64,000 nucleotides of DNA, taken from Octopus vulgaris (Eukaryota). The DNA lies in NCBI GenBank assembly GCA_951406725.2, contig OX597819.1:119908001-119972000 (forward strand). Direction: 5' to 3'. Made by a program: the position numbers and the translations under genes. Positions 1 to 64,000 of this stretch are shown here, one piece after another (position 1 is the stretch's first letter; the number at the start of each line of letters is the position of its first letter). The notes beneath the pieces are model-generated. The model did no database searches. It was not told the DNA's origin and saw only the letters and a program-made list of their open reading frames with translations.

Positions 1-24
1 CATCTATATATGTTTATGTATATG

Positions 25-5325: not shown

Positions 5326-6276
5326 GCGCACGAGCAATTGGCTGATAGGTGGGAGGAGAAACCTCTGCACGGCAAATATGTGACCCGCAGCAAACAAGCT
5401 GATGTTGACCAGAAGCAAACCCATCAGTGGCTGCGGAGCTCAGGGCTAAAAGCAGAGAGCGAAGGTTTCATCCTGGCTGCTCAAGACCAAAGCCTATTAA
5501 CCCGGAACTACCAGGCCAATGTGATGAAAATGGAGCAGACCCAAAATGCCGATTCTGCAACGACATGATTGAAACAGTGGACCACCTAATAACTCTGGAT
5601 GTAAAGTCTTAGCACCAGTGGAGTATAAATTAAGACATGACAGAGTTGGCCAATATCTCCACTGGCTAATAAGTCGGCATTACAATATCAAAACTGCCGA
5701 CAAGTGGTATAATCACCACCCTGAGGCTGTAACTGAAGGAGAAAATGTAACCATTCTGTGGGACTTTCCAGCACATACAGACCGAACCATCAAGGCCAAT
5801 AAACCAGATATTGTTGTGAAAGACCAAAACAATAAAGTTTGCTTATTGATCGACATGAGCATCCCCTGTGATCATAATATCTCAGCGAAAGAGTTTGACA
5901 AGCTCAGAAAATATAAAGACCTACTCATTGAAATTGAGAAAATGTGGCATCTCAAGGCGGTTACAATACCAGTGATCGTAGGAGCACTAGGAATGATCAA
6001 GAAGGGAACCGAAAATTATATGAGAATGATCCCTGGCTTACCATCCCTGCAAGAAGTGCAAAAGATTGTCTTAACTGGTACATCACACGTATTGAGAAGA
6101 GCATTGTCGAACTGTTGCTGCTCATGTATTTTAATTTAACTTAAAAAAAAAAAAAATGAACGAACTACTGAGTTTGGTTTAATGGCCTACCAATATACAC
6201 TATGAGTTTCTTTGCCCTAGGAGTCGGGAAGACACTCGGCAAGAAATGGAAGAAAATTTGAAAGAAGAAAAAAAAA
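5326..6276 (+). mobile_element. 5'-truncated R4/Dong-like non-LTR retrotransposon
   Basis: ORFs 5338-5568, 5427-5612, 5618-6139: LHGKY, AAQDQSL, CRFC..ETVDHL, RHD, KPDIVVKD..LLID..K..KY (PD-(D/E)xK RLE), IPVIVGALG; (TAA)n on both sides. Confidence 0.92.
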
Positions 6277-6321
6277 GTAATAATAATAATAATAATAATA
6301 ATAATATTAATGATAATAATA

Positions 6322-6384
<63 letters not shown>

Positions 6385-6405
6385 GTAATAATAATAATAA
6401 TAATG

Positions 6406-6461
<56 letters not shown>

Positions 6462-6464
<3 letters not shown>

Positions 6465-6992
6465 CATGCCTACAGAGTACCTCAGTAGGCATGATAGAGC
6501 TGCAGAATATATTCACTGGGTAATTTGCAAAAACCTGGATTTGCCCCATGAAAAAAACTGGTGGGAACACAATCCACCTCCTGTGCTTGAAAATGACCAC
6601 ATCTCACTCCTCTGGAACTTCACCATTCAAACTGACAGGAAGATAGATGCAAATAGGCCAGACATCATATTGAAAGAATTCAGACAAAGAACATGCCTCC
6701 TCATTGATATGACTGTCCCAATCGATATAAACGTATCTGTCAAGACCTACCAAAAACTGAGCAAATATAAAGATCTTGAAATAGAAATCAGCAAAACGTT
6801 GGAACCTGAAGACTAAAACAATACCTGTTGTCATAGGTGCCCTGGGAATGATAGCGAAAGGGACTGATTGCTACCTAACTCAGATACCAGGAAACCCCAA
6901 AATGGCAGAAATTCAAAAGATAGTGCTCATGGGAACTGCTCATATCCTACGCAAAATACTCTCTATGTAATCCCAAGGTTTAAAACAAACTT

Positions 6993-7025
<33 letters not shown>

Positions 7026-7190
7026 ATTTTTATGTATTAGACATTCACTAGTACAACACCAAAAAAAAAAGAAAAAAAGGAAAAAAAAACCAAATATATG
7101 GCACAGAACTTCCAACCTTTTGTCTCTTGATGTCTCTGGGTGAGACTTGGAGCCAACTTGTACAGACATAAAGCAAAAGTCAAACATAGA
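6462..7190 (+). mobile_element. 5'-truncated R4/Dong-like element (RLE domain)
   Basis: EYLSRHD..YIHW, LLWNFTIQTD, NRPDIILK, LLID, K..KY; (TAA)n flanks. Confidence 0.9.
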
Positions 7191-7208
7191 ATAATAATAC
7201 TAATAATA

Positions 7209-7266
<58 letters not shown>

Positions 7267-7292
7267 TAATAATAATAATAGTAATAATAATG

Positions 7293-7349
<57 letters not shown>

Positions 7350-7374
7350 GTAATAATAATTAATCCTTTCTACT

Positions 7375-8234
7375 AAAGGTAATGGATGATTGCAAAGATA
7401 AAGCAATGTACAAGCAGGTGAAAATGAATGAAACTGAAAATAGGTGGATATAGAAAAGGATATATAGCCTAAAAGTGATTTATAGACGGAAGCGGAAACT
7501 CCAATCTGTGCTGCCCAAGAGCAAGCATTAAGAACAAATTAATTCAAATACAGAATAGACAACACAACAGAAAGTGCAAAATGCAGAATGTTTTGATAAG
7601 ATGGTGAAACTGTAGGGTATATTACTAATCAATGTACGCCTCTAGCCCAGAAGGAATATAAAAGACGCCACGACAATATAGCAAGGCTTGTTCATTGGAC
7701 ACTTTGCAACAAGTATGTACTTGACAGAGCAAAAAATGTGGTACGAACATAAACCCTAAGGCATAATCGAAAATGATAGTGCAAAGGTCCTATGGTATTT
7801 TATGATTCAGTGCGACCATGAGATAGAGAATAGGGAGTCAGACATAGTGTTAATTGACAAAGTAATTAAAAGACGCTGGATCATAGATATAGCATGCCCA
7901 GCTGACAAAAAGGTGTGTAATAAGGAAGAGTGAAAAGTCGATGGATATGACAGGTTAGATTGGGAGGTTAAGTAGTTGTGGCTTCTGATAAAGGTGGTGG
8001 TGGAACCAATAATTGTCGGAGCCCCGCAAACAGTGGGTAATAATCTTGAGAAGTACATTGAACAAATAGGGGCTGCAATAAGGGTGGAGCACTTGCAGAA
8101 AACAGCACAGCTTGGAACCGCACGAATACTCCCGATGGTGCTCGAAAAATAAGGAGTGTTAACTTACTTCTCTGGTAGTGAACAGCTGGCACTGTAGTAC
8201 ATCTCCAGCGTTAGCAACTGTGCAACGACAATAG

Positions 8235-8235
<1 letters not shown>
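7375..8235 (+). mobile_element. Decayed R4/Dong-like element, same subfamily as 4428-5110
   Basis: Nucleotide similarity to 4428-5110 and 9987-10560 including the 3' UTR (gtagtacatctccagcgttag); stops and frameshifts. Confidence 0.85.
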
Positions 8236-8297
<62 letters not shown>

Positions 8298-8334
8298 AAG
8301 AAGAAGAAGAAGAAGAAGAAGAAGACGAAGAAGA

Positions 8335-8399
<65 letters not shown>

Positions 8400-8619
8400 G
8401 ATGGTGATGAGTTAGAAATATTTCACAAGGGCAGCAATTTTGGAAGAGATGTAAGTCGATTACATCTACTTCAGTGTTTGACTGGGACTTATTTTACGAA
8501 AGAACGAAAAATAAATTTGACCTTGACGTGATTTGAACTCCGATCGTAAAGACAGACGTAATGTCGCGAATCGTTTTGACAGTCCCAGTAACGATTCTGC
8601 AATTTCATAAAATAATGAT

Positions 8620-8960
8620 ATCGACCATCTGTTAAGTGAATGCTCTAAACTTGCTCAAATATTGTATTAGGATGTCAGCCAAGTGTGTGGATTGAAAGCA
8701 GAGAATGTAATGGGGTGAGAACGAGCCAAAAGTTGTGATTTACAATGATAATTATATGGCTTTAGCAAATTTCCCCATAAAGAAAAAAGAAAACTAGATA
8801 TGGTAATAGAGGCCAAAAAATGAAAAATGCGATGCCAAATAATTATGGGGTTGATACCAAAGAAATTCTTAAAAATTGAGAAATATCAGGATCTAATTAG
8901 CGATTTGAAGAGATTGGGGATGCTAAAGGTTAATGCTTGTTTGTGTAGTGCTCCTAGAAC
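8620..8960 (+). pseudogene. Highly decayed RLE fragment
   Basis: Remnants DHLLSECSKLA, KLDMVIE, KIEKYQDL. Confidence 0.45.
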
Positions 8961-9337
8961 AACACATGGCGGCCTCTGTGTGAATTACTCTTCGTGGCTA
9001 CACAACAATGTATTTGAATTGCAGCAAATATATGGAACCAATTTCGTCTGACTCGTCACCTGAATCAGACGTTTTCCAGGTCCATATGGAAGGTTTCAGT
9101 GTTAATGACTATCACTATTTTCTGAGATGCTGAAGATTATACAAATTTAATATTAAACTATCCAGCTCCATCCAGCTCCATCCAGGATTAGGACCCGAAT
9201 GACCATCGTGATTTCTTCAAGTTCACATTAGCACATTATCGAAATGGCAGCAGAACCAGTCAAATGTTTGAAATACAGATGAATGTTTAAAGGTTAATGT
9301 ACCCCAGCACATAATAGCTATTCTCACACAGGTTTGT

Positions 9338-9570
9338 TATTTCTTTACTGCCCACAAGGGGCTAAACATAGAGGGGACAAACAAGGACAGACAAACGGAT
9401 TAAGTCGATTACATCGACCCCAGTGCGTAACTGATATTTAATTTATCGTCCTCGAAAGGATGAAAGGCAAAGTCGACCTCGGCGGAATTTGAACTCAGAA
9501 CGTAACGGCAGACGAAATACGGCAACACATTTCGCCCGGCGTGCTAACGTTTCTACCAGCGCGCAGCCTT
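9338..9570 (-). mobile_element. SINE family C
   Basis: Matches 22277-22725 and 56449-56785 (GTTCTGAGTTCAAATTCCGCCGAGGTCGACTTTGCC core). Confidence 0.85.
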
Positions 9571-9986
9571 AATTCTCACACAGGTTTGTGTCCTGCCACT
9601 AACGTTACGGAATGATATACTCCAACGAGTGCCTCCAGGAGTCTGGAAGAATCTATTTTCTACGTTTTGCAGCAGAATTGACCTCTAGTCTCAATATTTC
9701 AAAGACCCTTACAGCACAAGTCAAATTACATGGTTTTCGGACCTGCGGCCACGCCTTTCGTTCAGGACCGACCTAAATGAGTGTAAACGGCATAGATGTC
9801 CAGGAGGACACCGTGATATCGCATTTTGGATCAATGGTCTTGTTATTTCTTACTGCGTCCTGATATATTGACCTGAGGTTAAAACTTCGGTGTCACAATC
9901 GCCCCACGGTTATAAGCTTCATAAATTCTATTCTAAGTAGAAACATAATAATAATAACAACAATAATAATAATAACAACAACAACA

Positions 9987-10558
9987 CCCAGAAGGAATAT
10001 AAGAGACGCCACGACAATATAGAAAGGCTTGTCCATTGGACACTTTACAACAAGTATGGACTTGACAGTGGTACGACCACAAACCCGAAGGCATAATCGA
10101 AAATGATAATGCAAAGATCTTGTGGGACTTTTTGATTCAGTGCGATCATGAGATAGAGTATAGGAAGTCAGACATAGTCTTAATTGAGAAAGAGAGCAAA
10201 CTATGCTGGATCATAGATATAGCATACCCAGCTGACAACAAGGTATGCGATAAGGAAGAAAGAAAAGTCAATCGATATGATATGTTAGTTTGGGAGGTTA
10301 AGCAGTTATGGGCGATGAAAAAAATAGAAGGAATAACAATAATTTTCGTAACCCTAGGAACAATGAGTAAAAATCTTGAGAAGTACATGGAACAAATAGG
10401 GCTGCAATAAGAGTTGAGTACTTTCAGAAAACAGCACGGCTTGGAACCGCTCGAATATTCCCGAAGGTACTCGAAAATTAAGAGATGTTACCTTAGTTCA
10501 CTGATAGTGAACAGCTGACACTGTAGTACATCTCCAGCGTTAGAAACTGTGCAAAGGC

Positions 10559-10560
<2 letters not shown>
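9987..10560 (+). mobile_element. 5'-truncated R4/Dong-like element
   Basis: ORF 10120-10410: WDFLIQCD, KSDIVLIEK, CWIIDIAYP; ends in (TAA)n. Confidence 0.85.
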
Positions 10561-10618
<58 letters not shown>

Positions 10619-11499
10619 TTAAGATTTTGACACAAGGCCGGCAATTTCGGAATCGAAGATAAGTTGATTACATCGACCGAAGTATTCTACTCGTATATAT
10701 TTGATCGGCCACAAAAGGATAGAAGGCAAATTCAACCTCGGTAGAATCTGAACACAGAACGTAATGAATCGGAAAAATTGCTGGTAAGCATATTGTCTGA
10801 CGCGCTAAACATTCATTCAGATAATGAAGGGGAGAACGCTGTTGCAGAAGGAGGAGGAGGAGGAGGAGGAGGAGGAGGGAGAAGTGGAGCAGCAGAAGAC
10901 GAAGAAGAAGGAAACGAAGAAGAAGAAGAAGAAGAAGAAGAAGAAGAAGAAGAAGAAAAAGAAGAAGAAGAAGAAGAAGAAGAAGAAGAAGAAGAAGAAG
11001 AAGAAGAAGAAGGCGATGATAATGATGGCGATGATGATGATGACGAAGACGAGGATACTGCTAACTAATAGGAGGAAGAACCAGAGGAAAAAAAGGTAAT
11101 GAGCCGATTCATAAAAGAGAAGGTAATTTCCTTCTACTCAGCCTAGAGATATAACTAATCAGCTTTTTGTAATTAACAGGTAATAACCCAAAACAACATT
11201 CTTGCAGTAAACACGAAGTTTTAATAGTGAAATATGAATAAAAGCAACAGAAATGTTTGATATAAAACATATTACATGTATCTTGTTACTTTTCCCTCAA
11301 AATATATAATTATGTTTTCGAAAATCCTTCAGGAAAAGAATTCATGGATTTTTTTTTTCACAATTATTATTTGTATTACATATAATTCTGGCCAAATGTA
11401 TGCTACGATAAACAGAATTATGAATTTATCGTCTCTCACGAGACGATAATGCATATCATTAATCCAGAGTTATTGGGAGTGTGACTTTCAGTTTAGATG

Positions 11500-11900
11500 T
11501 TGGTTTCAAATTTTGGTATAGAGCAAGCAATCCTTTAGGGGGAATTAAGACAATTACATCGACCCCGGTGATCAACTGGTACTTATTTTATCGACCATGA
11601 AAGCTTGCAAAGCAAAGTCGAACTCGGCGGAATTTGAACTCAGAACGTAAAGACAGACGAAATACCTATTTTTATTTCTTTACTACACACAAGGGGCTAA
11701 ACACAGAGAGCACAAACAAGGACAGACAAACGGATTAAGTCGATTATATCGACCCCAGTGCGTAACTGGTACTTATTTAATCGATCCCGAAAGGATGAAA
11801 GGCAAAGTCGACCTCGGCGGAATTCGAACTCAGAACGTAGCGGCAGACGAAATACCGCTAAGCATGTTACCCAGCGTGCTAAAATTTAGCCAGCTCACAG
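11500..11900 (-). mobile_element. SINE family C, tandem/dimeric
   Basis: Two successive copies of the family C core. Confidence 0.75.
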
Positions 11901-12917
11901 CTTTACTTTTCTTCTAAATATCGGTTTCAAATTTTATCACAAGGCCAGCAATTTAAAGAGGCAGGGCAGAACGATTACATCGACACGAGTGCTCAACTGG
12001 TATTTATTTTATCGACTTCCACATTCGTTTATAATTGAGTACGTGCATATCTGTTACAGCTCACAGAAGAAAACTGCAGTTGAGTTGGAACAATTCGTTA
12101 GAGCAGAAGGGAATTCCCAGAAGTACAACGGTGTTTGTTTATGTTCCCGTAACGTAGAACTTCGGCAAAAGAGAAAGAGACGATAAATAGCAGACATTAA
12201 AATAAGAAATTCCAGGGGCCAATTTAGTTGTATAAACCCTTCAATGCAGCGTCTTAGCCTTGCTACAAACCAAGAAGCGGAAGACGTGTAAAGCATAAAA
12301 CTTAGATCTGACTTTACTCTAAGTTTATATGTGTAGTTAGGTTTTCCATTGACAAGTTTGACGCCTTTGTGTTTCGTTGGTTGAACGCTTTCTGGGGCTG
12401 CAGATAATTTCTTTCAAACCGTGTAATCACACTGATCCGTGTATAAACAAATTTGAAAACTTTATAGATACAATTAAAAGCAGCCGTTTATTTGTGACCA
12501 TTCTCTTTGGTAATTGGTATTAATGTTACAAATACGACCTTTACAATTAATTCATATGTGAAAATACTTGGCCTTTGTTAATGTGCTGTCTGTTCGTTAA
12601 AACTATGAAAGTTAATTTCAATTTAATGTTTACTGTTTATTCTCGATATGTGACAGGAATCACAATAACTTCAAATATTACTCTCAAATGATATTTAAAT
12701 GTATTTGAAGTAATATTTAAATATTAGATGAGGATGAGTTCATTTATGCTTTCAAGCTAGAAAAATGCTTACAATATTTTCACAAATTCATTACTTCATT
12801 AATTCCTTGAAATTCTTACTGTTGCTTGTGAGTGGATAATGATTAACAGAGACAGAGTGCTGAACAGAATGACCACTCTCACTTTATAGGTTTCGTGCCT
12901 ATATGGAAAATATTATC

Positions 12918-12971
<54 letters not shown>

Positions 12972-12974
12972 GTC

Positions 12975-14598
12975 ATTTACTTTTAATCTGCATGTTTGAT
13001 GCAATCACTTGCCGGGGCACACCCAGCGCCCTAGGGCAAGTGAAGGTTAAGAGTTGTTGAAATATAGCTGAAAGCTTGGGGAGGGGAAGTAGAGAAATAT
13101 CTTCATGTAATGCAACACAAACATTTACATTGATAGGGTTTTTCTAAGGATGTGGGCAATACTTGTTAGCACAATCTTTTGGATTTCCTTGCGACATGGT
13201 TCTCCAGGGATATTGTCTAGGTGTTTCTGACATCCCATTTTTATGATACCTAGGGCACCTACAATAACAGGAACAGTTTTTGTTTTAAGATTCCACATCT
13301 TTTGTATTTCGATTTCCAGGTCCTTATATTTACTAAGTTTGTCAAATTCCTTTACAGATATATTTTTATTAGTGGGGACGCTTACCTCTATTAGTCTGCA
13401 GGTATTTTCTTCCCTGTCTTTATCAATTATGTCTGGTCGATTAGCCTTGATCGTTCTGTCAGTGTTGACTGGAAAATCCCAGAGGTTGGTAACATTTTTA
13501 CCTTCAACAACTGGCTGAGGATGGTGTTCATATCAGTTAGCAGGAGTGCCGAATTTGTAGTGTTTACATATCTTCCAATGTATATACTGTCCTACCCTAT
13601 CGTGGCGACTTTTGTATTCGTTTGGTGTCAGCACAGGACATCCTGAAACGAGATGGTCTATCGTTTCGTCAAATGTGTCGCAGAATCTGCATTTAGGGTC
13701 AGTATCGTTTCGGAGAACGTTAGCCTGATAATTTCTGGTAAACAAGCTTTGATCTTGTGCTGCCAGTATGAAGCCTTCAGTCTTTGCTTTCAATCCTGAA
13801 CTCTTCAGCCACTGATGGGTTGTTGTTTGGTCTACATCAGCATTTTGGCTTCGGAGAATATATTGTCCATGCAGGGGCTTCTGGCTCCACCGCCTCTCAA
13901 TTTGATTCTGCCCGTTCTTTTTTGCAGTCTGCTTGATTCGCTTTGCTTGCGTGGTAGCAGTGGTTTCCGGCTCTTCATCTGATTCAAGGTTAATGTCTAG
14001 TTCCCTTTCAAATTTATAAGCTTCCTTGACAATAGAATGCAGCTTTTTGCTGCTTTCGTGTTCGCACACAAGTCGCAGCATCCAGTCCTTTGTACTAGAT
14101 AGGTACCTGTTCATTCCTACATTGGAGGTCTTATAGCACAGCTCTAATTGCATCATTCCTCTCCCCACCGCTGCTTCTGGGTAGGTACAGGCGGTCTACA
14201 TCTGCCTTAGGGTGGTGCATGTTCTTGGATGTCAGTAATTTTCTTGTCTTCCTGTCCAAGCGTTGGAGTTCCGTAAGGTTCCAGTTAATGTTAAAACTGT
14301 ACTGGTCTACTGGAAGTACCAGGGTGTTAATGGCCTCAATGCAATTTTTGGAGTTGAGTTCAGTCTTCAGTACAAGCCTTATACTCCTATAGTATTCCTT
14401 TCTTATTTTTTTCCTTCATAGTAGCATGATGTATACTATCTCCTTCGTTGATTCCTAGGTATTTGTAACTTTCTTGTGGGTCAAGTTCCTTGATGGTAGT
14501 GTCAATATCTAATTTAACAGAAGCTGTTTGCCTGATCTTGCCTCTTACAAAAGTTGCTTTAGCACACTTATCAAGGCCAAAATCCATTCCGATATCAT
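12975..14598 (-). mobile_element. R4/Dong-like non-LTR retrotransposon, RT C-terminus to RLE, frameshifted
   Basis: MDFGLDKCA, YKYLG, HHPKADVDRLYLPR, LHGQY, AAQDQ, CRFC..DHLVSGC, RHD, RPDII; flanked by (TTA)n. Confidence 0.93.
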
Positions 14599-14612
14599 TG
14601 TTATTATTATTA

Positions 14613-14683
<71 letters not shown>

Positions 14684-14684
14684 A

Positions 14685-15494
14685 TTCAGTAGTTTTATTT
14701 TTATAGCGTGCTTTCACTTCACTACCGAGCGCAGCTCTGTGTGCCTTAGGTATGTGCTGTGATTTGTTGTGATGCTCTGATGGTTATTGTATGGAAAGTG
14801 TTCTGCGTAGGATGTGCGCAGTGCCTAGTAGTGCACTTTTCTGTATGTTATATGTGTTTGTAAGTCCTGGTATTTTTGTTATGTATTTGTCTGAATATTT
14901 TTTTATCATACCTAATGCACCTACTATGATAGGAATTGTTTCTGTTTTCAGATTCCACATTCTAGTTACCTCTATTTCCAGGTCTTTGTATTTTGAGAGT
15001 TTCTCCATTTCTTTTAGAGACACGTTGTCATCTGCCGGTATTGATACATCAATTAGAAAGCATTTATTTTCTTTATGGTCTCTGACAACTATATCTGGTC
15101 TGTTGGCCTTAATTTCTCTATCTGTGTGTATCGGCATATCCCAGAGTATGGTTGCTTTCTCGTTTTCTGTGACCTTTTCTGGTGTGTGCCTATACCATCT
15201 TTTTTCTGTTGTTATTCCATAATGTTGGCATAGCTTCCAATGTATGTAGGTTCCAACTCTGTCATGTCTGTGAATATATTCCTTCTTAGCCAGGACTGAG
15301 CAGCTAGAGATAATATGATTTATTGTTTCTTGTCCATCTCCACATATTCTGCAGTTACTTGTAATATTTCTTTTCATTACATGTTTTTGGTAATTTCTGG
15401 TGGGGAGGCTTTGGTCTTGTGCTGCAATTAAAAATCCCTCTGTTTCTGCTTTCAGTCCTGAGCTTCTCAACAATTGCTGGGATTTTCCTTTGTC

Positions 15495-15495
<1 letters not shown>
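14685..15495 (-). mobile_element. 5'-truncated R4/Dong-like element with open knuckle + RLE frame
   Basis: ORF to 14784: AAQDQSL, CRICG..ETINHIISSC, RHD, NRPDIVVRD, FLIDVSIP, K..KY, LLGTAHILRR. Confidence 0.93.
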
Positions 15496-15536
<41 letters not shown>

Positions 15537-15577
15537 CATTATAATTATTATTATTATCATCATCATCATCATCATCA

Positions 15578-15650
<73 letters not shown>

Positions 15651-15651
15651 A

Positions 15652-16133
15652 GCAGGAGTGGCTGTGTGGTAAGTAGTTTGTTTACCAGCCACATGGTTCC
15701 GGGTTCAGTCCCACTAGGAGTGGCTGTGTGGTAAGTAGTTTGTTTACCAACCACATAGTTCCGGGTTCAGTCCCACTGCGTGGCACCTTGGGCAAGTGTC
15801 TTCTACTATAGCCTCGGGCCGACCAAAGCCTTGTGAGTGGATTTGGTAGACGGAAACTGAAAGAAGTCCGTCGTATATATATATATATATATATATATAT
15901 GCGTGTGTGTGTTTGTGTATCTGTGTTTGTCTCCCTAGCATTGCTTGACAACCGATGCTGGTGTGTTTATATCCCCGTTACTTAGCGGTTCGGCAAAAGA
16001 GACCGATAGAATAAGTACTGGGCTTACAAAAGAATAAGTCCCGGGGTCGAGTTGCTCGATTAAAAGCGGTGCTCCAGCATGGCCGCAGTCAAATGACTGA
16101 AACAAGTAAAAGAGTAAAAGAGTAATAGAGTAA
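15652..16133 (+). mobile_element. SINE family A with tandemly duplicated head
   Basis: Head GGAGTGGCTGTGTGG...CAGTCCCACT present twice (~15654 and ~15717). Confidence 0.88.
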
Positions 16134-19504: not shown

Positions 19505-20061
19505 AATTAATCAATATAGGGTGGCAAAAAAAATTTTGTAGAATTCTTTTGCCACCAGCGGCCTAGTGGGAAAAAATTAAATAGTCATAAACCATTTTTA
19601 AGTTCAACATCAACAATCAAGGAACGGCCATAATAGGCCATTCACCCACTAGAAATAACAGCCAAAAGCTTTAACCGCAAAATAACGTTAATTCCGTAAA
19701 CCAGGAGAAAATTGAAAAACATTTACCCTGTAATTTCTTAGACGATGCACCGTTTCATCTTCTGTTTAATGGAAAACTAACCTGATTAAATTAAATCAAG
19801 CCAATCTACCATAGGCCCTTAGATTCATCAGTAAGAAATAGCCAAAACCGGAACAGATATTTTTCACGAGGCATTCTCATTGCTACCTCGTCAATATCTG
19901 ACCTAAAATTTTCAAATCGTCGCACTCGCTAAGAAATTACAGGGTAAATGTTTTTCAATTTTCTCCTGGTTTACGGAATTAACGTTATTTTGCGGTTAAA
20001 GCTTTTGGCTGTTATTTCTAGTGGGTGAATGGCCTATTATGGCCGTTCCTTGATTATTGAT
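19505..20061 (-). mobile_element. Retrozyme-like non-coding element with ~130 bp inverted arm, in (TA)n
   Basis: ~19610-19741 is the reverse complement of 19929-20060; hammerhead at 19733-19839; TA tracts on both sides. Confidence 0.75.
19733..19839 (-). ncRNA. Type I hammerhead ribozyme with large stem II insertion
   Basis: Minus strand: ATTTCTTA-CTGATGA-ATCT[~60 nt]AGAT-GAAA-CGGTGCATCG-TC^TAAGAAAT; 8 bp stem I, canonical core, GUC site. Confidence 0.8.
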
Positions 20062-20080
20062 ATATATATATATATATATA

Positions 20081-21996
20081 TAATAGAAATATTAAAATTA
20101 CTAAGTTTCTCTAAAAGAGAACAACGGCAGCGTTCCCGGAAAATAATAGTTATCGCCATACTAATATGGCATTCTTATAAAAATAAGAATAAAGCTGTCC
20201 GCTTATTAGCTCCATGAGGCCATCGCCTTAAGTTAGCTATTTGATACACAAACTGTATCCATATAACCTTTGAACAAGGGAGGTCAGTCGCTCCACACTA
20301 CTTGGCCGGCAGCTACAGACGCGTTTCGGGGTATTGCCCCTTTTCAATGCAGCGTAGCCAGACCAGTAGGTGTCGCTTCTGACAATCTCTGTTCAAAGGT
20401 TTTATTTACCTAGCTTCGGTGGGATACATCCACTTGTTTTCAATAATAGAAATATTAAAATTACTAAGTTTCTCTAAAAGAGAACAACGGCAGCGTTCCC
20501 GGAAAATAATAGTTATCGCCATACTAATATGGCATTCTTATAAAAATAAGAATAAAGCTGTCCGCTTATTAGCTCCATGAGGCCATCGCCTTAAGTTAGC
20601 TATTTGATACACAAACTGTATCCATATAACCTTTGAACAAGGGAGGTCAGTCGCTCCACACTACTTGGCCGGCAGCTACAGACGCGTTTCGGGGTATTGC
20701 CCCTTTTCAATGCAGCGTAGCCAGACCAGTAGGTGTCGCTTCTGACAATCTCTGTTCAAAGGTTTTATTTACCTAGCTTCGGTGGGATACATCCACTTGT
20801 TTTCAATAATAGAAATATTAAAATTACTAAGTTTCTCTAAAAGAGAACAACGGCAGCGTTCCCGGAAAATAATAGTTATCGCCATACTAATATGGCATTC
20901 TTATAAAAATAAGAATACAGCTGTCCGCTTATTAGCTCCATGAGGCCATCGCCTTAAGTTAGCTATTTGATACACAAACTGTATCCATATAACCTTTGAA
21001 CAAGGGAGGTCAGTCGCTCCACACTACTTGGCCGGCAGCTACAGACGCGTTTCGGGGTATTGCCCCTTTTCAATGCAGCGTAGCCAGACCAGTAGATGTC
21101 GCTTCTGACAATCTCTGTTCAAAGGTTTTATTTACCTAGCTTCGGTGGGATACATCCACTTGTTTTCAATAATAGAAATATTAAAATTACTAAGTTTCTC
21201 TAAAAGAGAACAACGGCAGCGCTCCCGGAAAATAATAGTTATCGCCATACTAATATGGCATTCTTATAAAAATAAGAATAAAGCTGTCCGCTTATTAGCT
21301 CCATGAGGCCATCGCCTTAAGTTAGCTATTTGATACACAAACTGTATCCATATAACCTTTGAACATATAACCGAAGCTAGGTAAATAAAACCTTTGAACA
21401 GAGATTGTCAGAAGCGACACCTACTGGTCTGGCTACGCTGCATTGAAAAGGGGCAATACTCCGAAACGCGTCTGTAGCTGCCGGCCAAGTAGTGTGGAGC
21501 GACTGACCTCCCTTGTTCAAAGGTTATATGGATACAGTTTGTGTATCAAATAGCTAACTTAAGGCGATGGCCTCATGGAGCTAATAAGCGGACAGCTTTA
21601 TTCTTATTTTTATAAGAATGCCATATTAGTATGGCGATAACTATTATTTTCCGGGAACGCTGCCGTTGTTCTCTTTTAGAGAAACTTAGTAATTTTAATA
21701 TTTCTATTATTGAAAACAAGTGGATGTATCCCACCGAAGCTAGGTAAATAAAACCTTTGAACAGAGATTGTCAGAAGCGACACCTACTGGTCTGGCTACG
21801 CTGCATTGAAAAGGGCAATACCCCGAAACGCGTCTGTAGCTGCCGGCCAAGTAGTGTGGAGCGACTGACTCCTTGTTCAAAGGTTATATGGATACAGTTT
21901 GTGTATCAAATAGCTAACTTAAGGCGATGGCCTCATGGAGCTAATAAGCGGACAGCTTTATTCTTATTTTTATAAGAATGCCATATTATATGGCGA

Positions 21997-22003
<7 letters not shown>
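20081..22003. mobile_element. Retrozyme-like array: ~3.5 direct copies of a 363 bp unit, then ~1.75 inverted copies, in (TA)n
   Basis: Unit starts at 20081, 20444, 20807, 21170; inversion junction ~21366-21371; one hammerhead per unit; no ORF. Confidence 0.88.
20312..20353 (-). ncRNA. Type I hammerhead ribozyme, U3:A8 core variant (also 20675-20716 and 21038-21079 on -, 21437-21478 and 21800-21840 on +)
   Basis: GCTGCA-TTGAAAA-GGGG caata CCCC-GAAA-CGCG-TC^TGTAGC; palindromic stem III ACGCGT; stem I extends further. Confidence 0.82.
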
Positions 22004-29995: not shown

Positions 29996-30019
29996 GAGAA
30001 CAAATCAAATAGCCCTCAC

Positions 30020-30325
30020 AGTTTGTTTTTACTGTTTTGTTCTTACTGTTCTGTTTTTGTTACCATTTTCACCCTCCGCAAAAAAATCTAAAATTATTTA
30101 ATTTGCTTTGTGGGAATCACTGATTTTACGAAATCGCGGAGTAGATAAAACAGGGGACAGCTGATAAAGGGGATGTTCTTTATGTTGCCTGTCTCGTGTG
30201 TCTGTTTCTTTCGTTGTTCCCAAAAAAGTCCGTTTTCTATATTTTTCTGTTTTATGTTCTCGTTTCTCATTTTGTCTACGTTTCTTTGATGCCCTGTACC
30301 CATATATGCATGTATATATACACAC

Positions 30326-30382
<57 letters not shown>

Positions 30383-36620: not shown

Positions 36621-37390
36621 ACGCATTCTTTTCCAAGTACGTTTTATCTTTGCGCACTCTTATTCTATCTCTTTTCTGTCTAGCTCTCTCTCTTTCTCTT
36701 GTTCTTCCTTTCTGTTTTTCACTCCCACCCTTTCCCTATTATTCTCCTCTCACCTTCACCGTTCTCTATCTTTCTCTCTCACTCGTCCTCCTTGACTCTA
36801 TCGTTCCTGACACGTGACTAACAGCCAATCTCTCTTTCACTTCCTTAATAAAGACAACACGTGCTTTTATCTGTCTCTTCTCAAAGCTCGCTTTTCCAAA
36901 CGTTCAACACTTCACGTTTGTCTTTACTGTTTTGTTCTCACCGTCCTGTTTTTTGTTACCACTTTGACCCTCCACAAAACATCCCAAATTTAATTTAATT
37001 TGTTTTGCGAGAAGGACTGTTTTAACGAAGGCGCGTGTTGTCCTTACCTTCGAACGCAGAGTATATAAAACAGGGGACAACGCGGAGTATATAAAAGAGG
37101 GGACATTTCTACAGCTGTTTCTCTGTTTGTTTGCTTTTTTTCGTTGTTCGAAAACATGTTCGTTTCTATGTTTTTGTTTTTTAAGTTTTCGTTTCTCACT
37201 CTGTCCAAGTTTTGTTATGTCCTGTACCCATATATGCATGTATATATACATATATATGTATGTATGTACATATATGTATGTATATATGCATACATTTATA
37301 TATTATTTATATTATTATATGATCGCACGCCACGTATCCTTTTCCAAGTATGTTTTATCTTTTATATATAAATATATATATATATATATA

Positions 37391-38174
37391 CTAAATAATT
37401 AAGGGTTTAGCAACGATTTGCTTCACCACACACCGAATTTAGAAATAGCAGTCAAAGAGTTTTGGCTATTCTTTCTACTTAAAAGGGAGATCCCAGTAAA
37501 ACCACACCACCTAAAAGGCAAACAACGCAGGCAAAAGAGAAAGAAATGACGACAATCATTCTATATTAAGTCACCTACGGACGTACGTTTCGGAATTAAG
37601 TCATAGGAAGGCATAAAAATTAAATAATTATGTCTTACCCAACTATCTTCCTCTTCAGCGTAGGACTCTTCAATTATAAATAATTGCGTCTCAATTATTA
37701 ATAATTGTGTATTAAATTTGAAGGCACTAGAAGACATCACCTCAACTCATGGTATCAGAGCGAGCGTAAGCCATTACCAGTACCACCAAATTCAAAGGGT
37801 GAATGAAAGTATGTCACCATCCCCCCTCCGCCAGCGTGCTGCCAAAAATAAGATGCTACGGTTTTTTACTGGGATGAAATATAATTATCAATAATAATAT
37901 AGGGTGAAATTAATTAATTTGGAATAATCATTAATTTCACCAAGTAGATTTCGGCATGTAAAAGCCCCATTCAAGGAAGGTTTAAGTAATACTAAGTAAT
38001 TAAGGGTTTAGCAACGATTTGCCTCACCACACACCGAATTTAGAAATAGCAGCCAAAGAGTTTTGGCTATTCTTTCTACTTAAAAGGGAGATCCCAGTAA
38101 AACCACAGCACTTAAAAGGCAAACAACGCAGGCAAAAGAGAAAGGAATGACGACAATCATTCTATATTAAGTCA

Positions 38175-38178
<4 letters not shown>
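37391..38178 (-). mobile_element. Retrozyme-like element: 601 bp unit plus ~187 bp partial repeat, in (TA)n
   Basis: 37391-37577 repeated at 37992-38178; hammerhead at 37574-37664; TA tracts on both sides. Confidence 0.82.
37574..37664 (-). ncRNA. Type I hammerhead ribozyme with extended stem II
   Basis: CCTACG-CTGAAGA-GGAA[~52 nt]TTCC-GAAA-CGTACG-TC^CGTAGG; palindromic ACGTACGT. Confidence 0.85.
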
Positions 38179-38250
<72 letters not shown>

Positions 38251-38830: not shown

Positions 38831-40208
38831 ATATATAGATATAAGAAAAGGGACAGGTTGCTTGACCGCATACTGAAAAATAGAAATAGCAGTCAAGAAT
38901 GCTTATTTCTATCAAAGTTGGATTCTGGCATGACAAACCCTGTAATTCACATATACAAAACAGAAGGAATAGATAACGAAAACGAAGTCTGGCGGTTATC
39001 TGTGAACATCATGTTTCTGGATTATAAACATATTGAATATATATTTCATATATATATTTGATATATATTTCATATACATTGCATATATATTTCACATCCT
39101 TCTTCAGCTATTGCTTTCCATTGAAAAAGATTTATCATAGATTTATCAAATGCTACGTACTCAAACCTTCTGAGACATCAAAATATTTGAAGAAGTGAGC
39201 AAAAGCTAAACCTACATAGACGTTTGAATTCGTAAATCTTCCTCCAAAATTTTGCCATGCGCACTACAAAATAGTTCCATAAGATTGGGAACTATTAGTT
39301 GTCATAATGGAGTGAAAAATCCAAATAGTAATATAATAATAAGAGTAAATAATTTCTATAAAGGCTTTTAAAAAAAACCCAATTATTTAAATAATTGGGT
39401 TTTTTTTAAAAGCCTTTATAGAAATTATTTACTCTTATTATTATATTACTATTTGGATTTTTCACTCCATTATGACAACCCAATAGTTCCCAATCTTATG
39501 GAACTATTTTTGTAGTGCGCATGGCAAAATTTTGGAGGGAAGATTTACGAATTCAAACGTCTATGTAGGTTTAGCTTTTGCTCACTTTCTTCAAATATTT
39601 TGATGTCGCATGGTCAGAAGGTTTGAGGTACGTAGCATTTGATAAATCTATGATAAATCTTTTTCAATGGAAAGCTGTGCTGAAGAAGGATGTGAAATAT
39701 ATATGCAATGTATATGAAATATATATCAAATATATATATGAAATATATATTCAATATGTTTATAATCCAGAAACATGATGTTCACAGATAACCGCCAGAC
39801 TTCGTTTTCGTTATCTATTCCTTCTGTTTTGTATATGTGAATTACAGGGTTTGTCGTGCCCGGAGTCCAACTTTGATAGAAATAAGCATTCTTGACTGCT
39901 ATTTCTATTTTTTCGGTATGCGGTCAAGCAACCTGTTTGCCTGTCCCTTTTTCTTATATACAATATATATACTGAACTTTACAGAAGTTCCTGCCGGTAA
40001 TCGGCTATATTTACATACCGAATTCTACCAGTAAATAATTGGGGTTTTTTTTAAAGCCTTTATAGAAATTATTTACTCTTAGTATTATATTACTATTTGG
40101 ATTTTTCACTCCATTATGACAACCCAATAGTTCCCAATCTTATGGAACTATTTTTGTAGTGCGCATGGCAAAATTTTGGAGGGAAGATTTACGAATTCAA
40201 ACGTCTAT
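38831..40208. mobile_element. Retrozyme-like element: spacerless ~560 bp-arm palindrome plus 644 bp tandem unit
   Basis: Palindrome axis at 39388/39389; unit restarts at 40033; hammerhead at 39675-39787; TA/GATA flanks. Confidence 0.75.
39675..39787 (+). ncRNA. Type I hammerhead-like ribozyme with AT-rich stem II insertion and GUU site
   Basis: CTGTG-CTGAAGA-aGGAT[~70 nt]ATCCa-GAAA-CATGATG-TT^CACAG; damaged mirror copy at ~39000-39110. Confidence 0.62.
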
Positions 40209-40413
40209 ATATACAGATAGATAGATAATACATAGATAGATACATACATAGATAGGGAGATAAATAGATACGTAAATCGATGGATAGATAAATAGATAGA
40301 CAAGCAGATGAATAGATGGACAGATAGATCGATAGATAGAGAGAGAGATAGTTAGATAGATACATACATACATACATACATACATACATCCATACATAGT
40401 TAGATAGATAGAC

Positions 40414-51958: not shown

Positions 51959-52127
51959 CTGTGTGGTAAGTAGCTTGCTTAATAACCACATGGGTTCATT
52001 CCCACTGCGTGGCACCTTGGGCAGGTGTCTTCTACTATAGCCTCGGGCCGACCAAAGCCTTGTGAGTTGATTGGGTAGATGAAAACTGAAAGAAGCTAAT
52101 CGTATATATGTATATATATATATATAT

Positions 52128-52968
52128 ATAACATAAGGGGGATCAGCCATCTGAATGTGGCTAGGGACAGGGCGGGTTAGTGGGGGGGGTTACTGATGCA
52201 TTTAGCCCCAGGCGATCATCGACGTCACCAGAAGGACCGACACCATCTCGGTGTCCTTGCCAGCCTGCAAAGGGAGATCAGCCTCCCCGAAGATACGGAT
52301 ACTAAATACGGACCGGTTTCGAGGTATTTGCCTCTTATCAACGCATGGTAAGTACCGTTTTTCGTTGAGGGACTTCCTCTACAGGCTGGATATATATGGA
52401 TTTTCACAGTAACCACAGTCACTGATGTGCAAAAACCGTTCAACAACAATAATAAATCTCTGAGCGAGATATAAACAGTAACTGCTCTATAACATAAGGG
52501 GGATCAGCCATCTGAATGTGGCTAGGGACAGGGCGGGTTAGTGGGGGGGGGTTACTGATGCATTTAGCCCCAGGCGATCATCAACGTCACCAGAAGGGCT
52601 GACACCATCTCGGTGTCCTTGCCAGCCTGCAAAGGGAGATCAGCCTCCCCGAAGATACGGATACTATATACGGACCGGTTTCGAGGTATTTGCCTCTTAT
52701 CAAAGCATGGTAAGAACCGTTCTTCGTTGAGGGACTTCCTCTACAGGCTGGATATATATGGATTTTCAAGGTAACCACAGTCACTGATGTAGAAAAACCG
52801 TTCGACAACAATAATAAATCCCTTCTGGTGACGTTGATGATCGCCTGGGGCTAAATGCATCAGTAACCCCCCCCACTAACCCGCCCTGTCCCTAGCCACA
52901 TTCAGATGGCTGATCCCCCTTATGTTATAGAGCAGTTACTGTTTATATCTCGCTCAGAGATTTATTAT

Positions 52969-62906: not shown

Positions 62907-62985
62907 ACAGGAGTTGAAAAAAATAATGGAAACACCTAACATCGTAGCATCATAATTTTGAAATATCTATAAAATTGTCAAAACC
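62907..62985 (+). mobile_element. Possible orphan Tc1-like terminal repeat
   Basis: TA-CAGGAGTTGAAAAAAATAATGGAAACACC resembles Tc1 ends; no partner found. Confidence 0.35.
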
Positions 62986-63243
62986 TTGTTTATTTTTATG
63001 CGTTTTGTTTTTATTTATTTTTTGTGTCTCTTAATATGTTTTGCTACAATTGCTTTTCCTTTGCTGCCGATCCGTTCGTTCGCCCTCTCCCAATCGAACG
63101 TTCGCTTTCCGCCCGCGCCTGGGCAGGGTTTTGTTTTTTCTTTTCGTTTCCACTTTCTCGCGCCTCCTTCCTCGCATCCGACCCCCGGCCTCGTCTTCGT
63201 TTTCTCTTCGCAGCCGAGGACCCAGTCAGTCGCGTACCCATCG

Positions 63244-64000
63244 CAGCCCCCTCCTTTGCCAACCTAGTCATGGGATATCTAGAAATCAGTCTGTATCGTA
63301 AGGTTCTAGAAAGATATGGCAGCCCTTTCTCCCTCTACATAGAAAACAACTGGAAGAGATACCTAGATGACTGTTTCATTCTTTGGCATGAAAATATAGA
63401 GAAACTCAAAGAATTCCACGCAATTTTAAATGGACTGGACGTAAACATCCAATTCACGATGGAATATAGCCAGCAACAACCCCCCTTCCTCGACATCCTC
63501 ATTAAGAAATCTAATAACGTAATAAAAACAGATATATACTACGGATTCCAAGCAATATCTACCATTCAATTCATGCCACCCCAGACACACCAGAATGATT
63601 ATCCCCTTCAATCTAGCAAAAAGGATATGTACTATAGTTTCTAATGCAAACACCAGAGACACACGACTGCATGAACTAAAAGATACACTCATCACCAGGA
63701 ACTACCCACCTTCACTAATTGGCATATGCATTCAACGTGCCCTTCAACTCAACATCCAGGAACTCAAACATCTCAAATTAAAGAAAAATTTACAACCAAA
63801 AGCCTTACCATACATCTCCACACACAACCCTCTCAACAAGGAAGCCTTCGACACCATCCTCCAAAACATATCCCTGCTATAAAAGGACCACTGAATGAAC
63901 TTAATCCCCCAAACACACACGATCATAAAAAGCAAGAGACAGCCCAAATCAATGAAAAGTCTCGTAACACAAGCCCGAATACGCTCTTCAACACTGAAGC
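63244..64000 (+). pseudogene. Penelope-like element reverse transcriptase C-terminal half, running off the window
   Basis: APSFANLVMGYLE, WKRYLDDCFILW, IQFTME, PFLDILI, TDIY; after a frameshift YLPFNSCHPRH..IPFNLAKRICTIVS..L..RNYP. Confidence 0.9.

What the first reader, a model, noticed from the sequence alone, without database searches (positions are those of the whole stretch)
37391..38178. 601 bp unit whose genomic boundary lies 2 nt from the cleavage site
The right end (...GTCACCTA then TA repeat, 38178) corresponds to GUC^CG|UAGGUGAC, so the RNA 5' end of the insert matches the self-cleavage product. The insert then reads through one complete uncleaved ribozyme plus ~187 nt. This independently echoes the 19.9 kb breakpoint. 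The unit is longer than the roughly 150-400 nt monomers usually described for animal retrozymes.
Basis: partly seen in the sequence, partly recalled or inferred. Interest (0 to 1): 0.72.

Follow-up and report, generated by a model that had tools for sequence, protein, structure and literature searches.

The report
Penelope-mobilised ribozyme repeat, misread end
This is a truncated copy of a 601-base, protein-less jumping repeat carrying a predicted self-cutting hammerhead RNA; about 96% of its relatives run straight through the predicted cut site, so the end noticed here is likely an ordinary truncation, while the opposite end is fixed at two sites that likely mark where a Penelope-type reverse transcriptase starts copying.

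Summary
There is a 190-nt direct repeat at a 601-nt offset and one complete type I hammerhead on the minus strand. The right end lies 2 nt (2-4 with TA ambiguity) short of the predicted cut site.

Genome-wide, 8 of 199 passages (4%, this copy included) stop at that site. In 100 sampled passages, ends scatter 0-892 nt past it. The excess over chance is about 2-3 fold (P 0.014-0.073, depending on baseline).

The fixed end is the other one, the RNA 3' side: site A (37388) or site B, 110 nt further out, mostly on (TA)n. All 37 classifiable inverted two-arm copies pair A with B, never AA or BB. The two arms share rare alleles. A sister lineage forms near-identical arrays of 4.3 units.

This is the insertion signature of Penelope-like elements (PLE), here on a non-coding retrozyme, likely copied from a circular or multimeric RNA. 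A 601-nt unit is within published sizes (51-972 bp; 150 to >1000 nt). This copy has only one whole ribozyme, so it would not release a monomer itself. No autonomous partner was found and expression was not shown.

The parts
37388..38178 (-). Whole insertion, 1.3 units of a 601-nt non-coding repeat; RNA sense is the minus strand
   Evidence: family of dispersed copies
37388..37391 (-). Fixed end A (RNA 3' side; inferred reverse-transcription start), abutting a TA run
   Evidence: 101 of 194 arms start at q-8..6; 55 of 165 at exactly q-2
37440..37455 (+). Motif TAGAAATAGCAGTCAA about 50 nt inside end A, shared with several other TA-anchored families (inferred protein-recognition site); second copy at 38041
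37570..37665 (-). Complete type I hammerhead with long stem II and palindromic stem III (ACGUACGU; predicted to act as a dimer); predicted cut 37580|37579
37879..37988 (-). 110-nt 'tail' between fixed end B (37879) and the periodic copy of end A (37989)
   Evidence: 66 of 194 arms start at B; 37 of 37 classifiable inverted copies are A+B; TA-joined loose ends at 37879 in DNA contigs
37578..38178 (-). One full 601-nt period; folds as a circle at -183 kcal/mol against -129 +/- 4 for 30 shuffles
38168..38178 (-). Variable (RNA 5') end: only the 3' strand of stem I of a second hammerhead; stops 2-4 nt short of the predicted cut site
38177..38248 (.). (TA)36 run, right half of the likely target site; left half 37378-37390

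Best explanation
This is a 5'-truncated copy of a 601-nt protein-less hammerhead repeat (a non-LTR retrozyme) that was likely inserted by the enzyme of a Penelope-like element, with the right end likely an ordinary truncation joined through a shared TA rather than a ribozyme-cut end. Shown: fixed ends A and B on the RNA 3' side, scattered ends on the 5' side, (TA)n flanks, strict A+B pairing in inverted copies, both arms and both passes from one sequence variant, read-through of the cut site. Inferred: transcripts of copies with two whole hammerheads are cut by the dimeric ribozyme and closed into a ~600-nt circle. A PLE protein, likely a dimer, binds near the shared motif and nicks both strands of a TA run. 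It starts cDNA inside the RNA, at A on one strand and at B on the other, and copies round the template through the junction until it drops off. The cDNA end is joined by microhomology to the target (one-arm copy, as here) or to the other cDNA (inverted copy). This copy holds one whole ribozyme and would be a dead end.
For: Of 194 arms from 155 loci, 101 start at A, 66 at B and 27 elsewhere; variable ends take 165 different values. 133 of 167 A/B ends abut a TA run; a 15-nt target duplication at L018. 53 two-arm loci: 37 A+B, 0 AA, 0 BB, 16 with an unclassified end; in 21 of the 37 neither arm contains the other, which argues against simple fold-back there. Two arms of a locus differ by 2.3% against 5.7% between loci, with 23 rare alleles shared and 148 unshared (41 loci). 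Two passes within a copy differ by 2.3% against 4.7% between copies, and no difference is seen more than twice (40 copies). Sister 593-nt lineage: 4.3 units from end A, 0-2 differences per unit. Hammerhead: N7 is the free core column, and a stem II pair switches G-C/A-U (67 and 42 of 112). In vitro a PLE cuts and extends both strands at AT-rich DNA, starts at two internal sites that define the tail, and mainly uses uncut RNA (PMC11167929).
Against: No autonomous PLE carrying the shared motif or this hammerhead was found in 50 motif loci or next to the window. The tail is 110 nt, not the 30-40 nt described for PLEs (PMC8557442). No RNA evidence exists for a circle. In the 601 family the longest arm is 1.8 units, so a linear read-through transcript of an unseen array is not excluded. 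Covariation outside the hammerhead is mixed: several common variants break predicted pairs. Ends at the cut site are about 2-3-fold in excess, and two further copies stop 5-6 nt short of it (L007; L288).
Confidence: 0.72

Rival explanations
1. Same element and same enzyme, but this copy belongs to a minority made from the ribozyme-cut linear RNA (or stalled at the ligation junction): the enzyme ran off the 5' end and 2 nt were trimmed back to a TA that pairs with the target.
For: 7 of 198 other passages stop at q187-189 against 2.5-3.6 expected (P 0.014-0.073). Two of them (L128, L129) show a short slip-back re-copy at that point. In the 492 family, 9 loci (10 arms) end at the cut site among 14 A/C-next matches, against 2 of 10 and 6 of 11 at two control TA sites. 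L007 and L288 stop 5-6 nt short. The 19.9 kb arm stops within 1 nt.
Against: Only 1 of 199 passages ends at the exact cut position (L140). Other TA sites are as hot (4 of 50 at q378-379). One control site in the 492 family is close to the cut-site count (6 against 9-10, with control denominators not counted). The hammerhead body itself has a raised drop-off rate (0.56% per nt). No reads begin or end at the hammerhead site for the anole PLE (PMC11167929).
Confidence: 0.27
2. One reading: the family's 5' boundary is set by self-cleavage, as for R2 elements with a 5' ribozyme (recalled), so full-length copies end at the cut site.
For: This copy and the 19.9 kb arm end at their sites.
Against: 191 of 199 passages read through. 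10 of 12 arms reaching q780 pass the second site. 30 of 30 sampled passages of the 492 family read through.
Confidence: 0.02
3. The template is a linear read-through transcript of a tandem master array, and the ribozyme is only an inherited passenger of a PLE terminal repeat; no circle is involved.
For: Uncut RNA is the main substrate in vitro and ribozyme mutants still insert (PMC11167929). 8 of 9 predicted frog retrozymes did not cleave in vitro (10.64898/2026.07.22.740005). Multi-unit arrays exist in sister families.
Against: The core and stems are kept across subfamilies and a sister lineage about 83% identical. Units within one array are nearly identical and share variants private to that locus (L235-L237; within-array 0-0.7% against 0.6-8.5% between loci). 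No array of two full units turned up among 155 loci of the 601 family, though only 40 of 3634 candidates were scored.
Confidence: 0.25

Closest known systems
Metazoan non-LTR retrozymes (Cervera and de la Pena 2020, PMC7229834; Li, Clavereau and Pollet 2026, 10.64898/2026.07.22.740005)
   Same: Type I hammerhead with palindromic stem III, no ORF, low GC (36%), periodic unit, size within the published range, proposed PLE mobilisation from circular RNA.
   Different: Here the PLE insertion signature (two fixed starts, one per arm, inverted arms, TA targets) is read directly on the retrozyme copies. The parts of those papers that I read argue from co-occurrence and terminal-repeat homology. This family is mostly partial monomers, and cleavage and circles are untested.
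EN+ Penelope-like elements, e.g. Poseidon of Anolis (PMC11167929); general PLE anatomy (PMC8557442; PMC4209133)
   Same: 5' truncation, adjacent inverted truncated copy, tail at one end only, AT-rich or (TA)n targets, hammerhead upstream of the two reverse-transcription starts.
   Different: No RT or GIY-YIG ORF; the tail is 110 nt rather than 30-40 nt; the hammerhead is a canonical type I with a long stem II rather than the minimal form.
Non-autonomous Chlamys elements such as MRC1 (PMC8557442, passage)
   Same: Non-coding PLE dependants with pseudo-LTRs and head-to-tail multi-copy insertions.
   Different: Those resemble autonomous families at the 3' end and that clade lacks canonical hammerheads; no autonomous partner was found here.
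R2 retrotransposons with a 5' ribozyme (recalled, not read)
   Same: A self-cleaving ribozyme on the 5' side of the template.
   Different: In R2 the cut defines the full-length 5' end; here about 96% of passages read through.

Membership tests
Non-LTR retrozyme | Type I hammerhead in the repeat unit | tested here: met
   Core, stems I and II and palindromic stem III in 112 copies; 81 of 112 have the exact core plus palindrome; compensatory pair in stem II. No Rfam hit at gathering threshold.
Non-LTR retrozyme | Head-to-tail periodic repeat | tested here: met
   Period 601; 1.3 units here, up to 1.8 in the family; 4.3 units in a sister lineage.
Non-LTR retrozyme | No protein; low GC; no LTR, PBS or PPT | tested here: met
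   Longest stop-free frame 76 aa, longest ATG frame 58 aa; GC 36%. A PBS-like 12-mer lies mid-unit and is absent in sister lineages. PPT not searched.
Non-LTR retrozyme | Two consecutive whole hammerheads (the 2026 preprint's definition of an active copy) | tested here: not met
   This copy has one whole ribozyme; 6 of 12 arms reaching q780 span two.
Non-LTR retrozyme | Self-cleavage and accumulation as circular RNA | not testable with these tools
   Only assembled contigs of runs not on record as RNA were available.
Non-autonomous PLE dependant | Fixed 3' end with variable 5' truncation | tested here: met
   167 of 194 arms start at A or B; 165 different variable ends.
Non-autonomous PLE dependant | Inverted truncated partner with a tail at one end only | tested here: met
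   37 A+B, 0 AA, 0 BB among 53 two-arm loci; tail is 110 nt, longer than described.
Non-autonomous PLE dependant | AT-rich or (TA)n target | tested here: met
   133 of 167 A/B ends abut four or more TA.
Non-autonomous PLE dependant | Homology to the terminal repeat of an autonomous PLE | tested here: inconclusive
   No PLE ORF continuous with the motif in 50 loci; two nearby GIY-YIG remnants (L110, L291) are not joined to the unit.
Plant-type LTR retrozyme | Type III hammerhead in LTRs, PBS next to the LTR, 4-bp target duplication | tested here: not met
   Type I topology, repeat length varies between copies, PBS-like 12-mer not conserved, duplications longer or hidden in TA.
R2-like element with ribozyme-defined 5' end | Full-length copies end at the ribozyme cut site | tested here: not met
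   8 of 199 passages end there; 10 of 12 long arms pass the second site.

The most novel reading that the evidence does not exclude
A PLE protein dimer copies a retrozyme RNA circle by rolling-circle reverse transcription, with a strict division of labour: one subunit starts at A and the other at B, 110 nt away, each on its own target strand. It is recruited by a 16-nt motif shared by many small hammerhead families in this genome (32,918 matches in all, part of them in an unrelated repeat). The small excess of ends at the cut site is the trace of the linear, ribozyme-cut form being copied too.
Probability: 0.4. Interest if true: 0.65.

Novelty: new member of a known kind. Interest (0 to 1): 0.42.

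Why it matters
How animal retrozymes are put back into genomes is stated as open in the papers read (PMC7229834 Discussion; 10.64898/2026.07.22.740005 Discussion). This family gives base-level coordinates for a test: two start sites, a candidate binding motif, a target and a template. The 37:0:0 pairing of A with B also says something about PLE mechanism that the in vitro work did not resolve, since it saw no strand difference in start site.

Tried and rejected
Rfam scan: no hit.

Local fold z-score: not significant.

Whole-window repeat search: swamped by microsatellites.

L144, two copies 2.9 kb apart, was tested as terminal repeats flanking an ORF; it is a local duplication.

The plant tRNA-Met PBS-like 12-mer at 37751-37762 (label recalled) was rejected: it lies mid-unit and is missing in sister lineages.

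Fold-back as the general source of inverted arms was rejected for 21 of 37 loci.

Pfam scan of three PLE-like frames: no hits.

Search for the autonomous partner through the shared motif: none in 50 loci.

Covariation over the whole 601-nt fold: inconclusive.

Sequencing runs: no RNA holder listed; contigs laid say nothing on expression, strand or ends, and showed no empty allele.

L137 (= L074) first looked like an end at the cut site; it is a gapped relative that reads on and was not counted as an end. L121 and L126 are not family members and were dropped. The class with C then not-G after the anchor was not searched. over-merged loci (39 pairs); one search replaces it.

Earlier findings: none returned.

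Full report
Coordinates: q1 = window 37391; period 601; the predicted cut lies after q189 and after q790. The window is in a 2.8-Gb animal genome, G000. Its size and repeats recall an octopus; that is from memory and was not tested.

Observation. A 190-nt direct repeat (37388-37577, 37989-38178; 6 differences) gives a 601-nt period. The minus strand holds one whole type I hammerhead at 37570-37665, with the predicted cut at 37580|37579. The right repeat stops at 38178, 2 nt short of the equivalent site; its last TA is also the first of a (TA)36 run, so 2-4 nt. Rfam finds nothing and the local fold is not unusual (z -0.8). Across 112 copies the core is conserved, N7 is the free column, and one stem II pair switches between G-C (67) and A-U (42). 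Stem III is a palindrome that can pair only between two ribozymes; its common variant keeps the predicted duplex (-9.8 and -8.8 kcal/mol). This is the dimer architecture described in PMC4209133 (part 1 of 4 read). The unit has no ORF above 76 aa and folds as a circle at -183 kcal/mol against -129 +/- 4 for 30 shuffles. Covariation outside the ribozyme is mixed.

A DNA search gave 3634 candidates, 40 scored; in the 30 loci returned the right ends scatter. An anchor ending at q187 has 196 exact matches. In the first 100 listed, ends lie 0-892 nt further on, median 190; 4 stop at the anchor, this copy among them.

Genome-wide counts for a shorter anchor: 178 read on as CGG, 15 have a non-C next and 8 have CG then non-G. 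Of those 23, 12 read through with a point change, 2 are not family, 1 is a gapped relative that reads on, 7 end at q187 (this copy included) and 1 ends at q189. So 8 of 199 passages end at the site, or 7 of 198 without this copy. Expected: 2.5 (uniform rate), 3.3 (local rate) or 3.6 (TA-site rate); P = 0.014, 0.051, 0.073. Of 12 arms that reach q780, 10 pass the second site. The class with C then non-G was not searched, and ends just before q187 are invisible to this anchor.

The 19.9 kb echo. That element belongs to another family, with a 492-nt unit and 2279 anchor matches. Its inverted arm ends within 0-1 nt of its predicted cut. All 30 sampled passages read through. Among 14 matches with A or C next, 9 loci (10 arms) are true ends; 3 more continue with TATA. 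Two control TA sites give 2 of 10 and 6 of 11 true ends, with denominators not counted. The cut site is therefore a mildly favoured break point at most.

What is constrained. The other end is fixed. Of 194 arms from 155 loci, 101 start at A (q-8..6, mostly q-2 = 37388), 66 at B (q-114..-95, mostly q-112 = 37879 in the period) and 27 elsewhere; 133 of 167 A/B ends abut a TA run. These loci include top-scoring ones and ones picked for ending at the cut site. Of 53 two-arm inverted loci, 37 are A+B, none AA or BB, and 16 have an unclassified end; independent choice would give about 48% A+B. In 21 of the 37 neither arm contains the other, so those need two starts on RNA rather than fold-back.

One template per insertion. 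The two arms differ by 2.3% against 5.7% between loci, sharing 23 rare alleles (148 unshared; 41 loci). Two passes within a copy differ by 2.3% against 4.7% between copies, with no difference seen more than twice. A sister lineage of 593 nt runs 4.3 units from end A with 0-2 differences per unit. Arrays of the 492 family differ by 0-0.7% within a locus. A 16-nt motif about 50 nt inside end A is shared by three families in the window. It has 32,918 matches in the genome against 9 for the control; roughly half of those inspected lie in TA-anchored small families and the rest in an unrelated abundant repeat.

Mechanism. PMC11167929 (parts 1-2 of 4 read: main text and start of methods) shows that a PLE protein cuts and extends both strands at AT-rich DNA. 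It starts at two internal sites whose interval is the genomic tail, mainly uses uncut RNA, and no reads were found ending at the hammerhead site. PMC8557442 (12 of 24 passages) describes 5' truncation, adjacent inverted copies, a 30-40 bp tail at one end and (TA)n targets. The family matches this, with a 110-nt tail. I infer PLE-driven, target-primed copying from A and B around a circular or multimeric RNA, random drop-off, and joining by microhomology. The right end of this copy is then a truncation on a TA (about 0.7) or run-off at a cut end trimmed to that TA (about 0.27). With one whole ribozyme it would not release a monomer; 6 sampled arms span two. Not shown: cleavage, a circle, expression, or the partner enzyme. 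A decayed RT plus GIY-YIG frame at 62973 onward lacks the motif, and none of 50 motif loci led into a PLE ORF. Sequencing runs were uninformative.

Known context. PMC7229834 (12 of 22 passages and the Discussion) proposes PLE mobilisation of retrozyme circles and gives 150 to >1000 nt. The preprint 10.64898/2026.07.22.740005 (parts 1-3 of 5; supplements not seen) gives units of 51-972 bp and derives them from PLE terminal repeats. So 601 nt is ordinary. Five literature searches (listings only for papers not named above) showed no description of this family or of strict A/B pairing on retrozyme copies. The library lacks most subscription papers and Repbase was not searchable, so that absence is weak.

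Verdict. A new member of a known kind. The claimed cleavage-defined boundary is not a family rule. The value lies in the paired start sites and the shared motif, which make retrozyme mobilisation testable. Interest 0.42.

Noticed in passing
window 19505-20060; L156-L253: 492-nt hammerhead family, 2279 anchor matches, in arrays of up to 10 units, often as two inverted arms; shares the A-side motif and a B-side word with the 601 family.
   Followed up: partly
window 20080-22000: 363-nt tandem repeat (3.5 copies) with an inverted arm in a TA run; carries a hammerhead-like core with an altered CUGANGA box near 21430-21480.
   Followed up: no
window 38840-40210: Another palindromic TA-anchored element with the same 16-nt motif (38881 and 39907) and hammerhead-like remnants.
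   Followed up: partly
window 52127-52820: 362-nt two-copy repeat with a hammerhead-like CTGATG...GAAAC arrangement.
   Followed up: no
window 62973-64000; L254:1974-3440: Decayed, frameshifted Penelope-like ORF with RT, a Cys-rich linker and a GIY-YIG-like domain (Neptune/Nematis-like by recall); no Pfam hit; lacks the shared motif.
   Followed up: partly
L255-L304: The 16-nt motif also lies in a very abundant repeat that is not TA-anchored (SINE-like by appearance); why the two groups share it is unexplained.
   Followed up: no
L288:2796-5337; L286; L300: Younger sister lineages (593 and 584 nt) with the same hammerhead core; L288 holds 4.3 near-identical units and stops 5-6 nt short of the cut site.
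   Followed up: yes
window 5573-16000: Several broken non-LTR retrotransposon frames beside (AAT)n runs.
   Followed up: no
window 36912-37303 and 30016-30377: The left flank is part of an older repeat, 73% alike to a second copy in the window; the element sits in a TA run beside it.
   Followed up: partly
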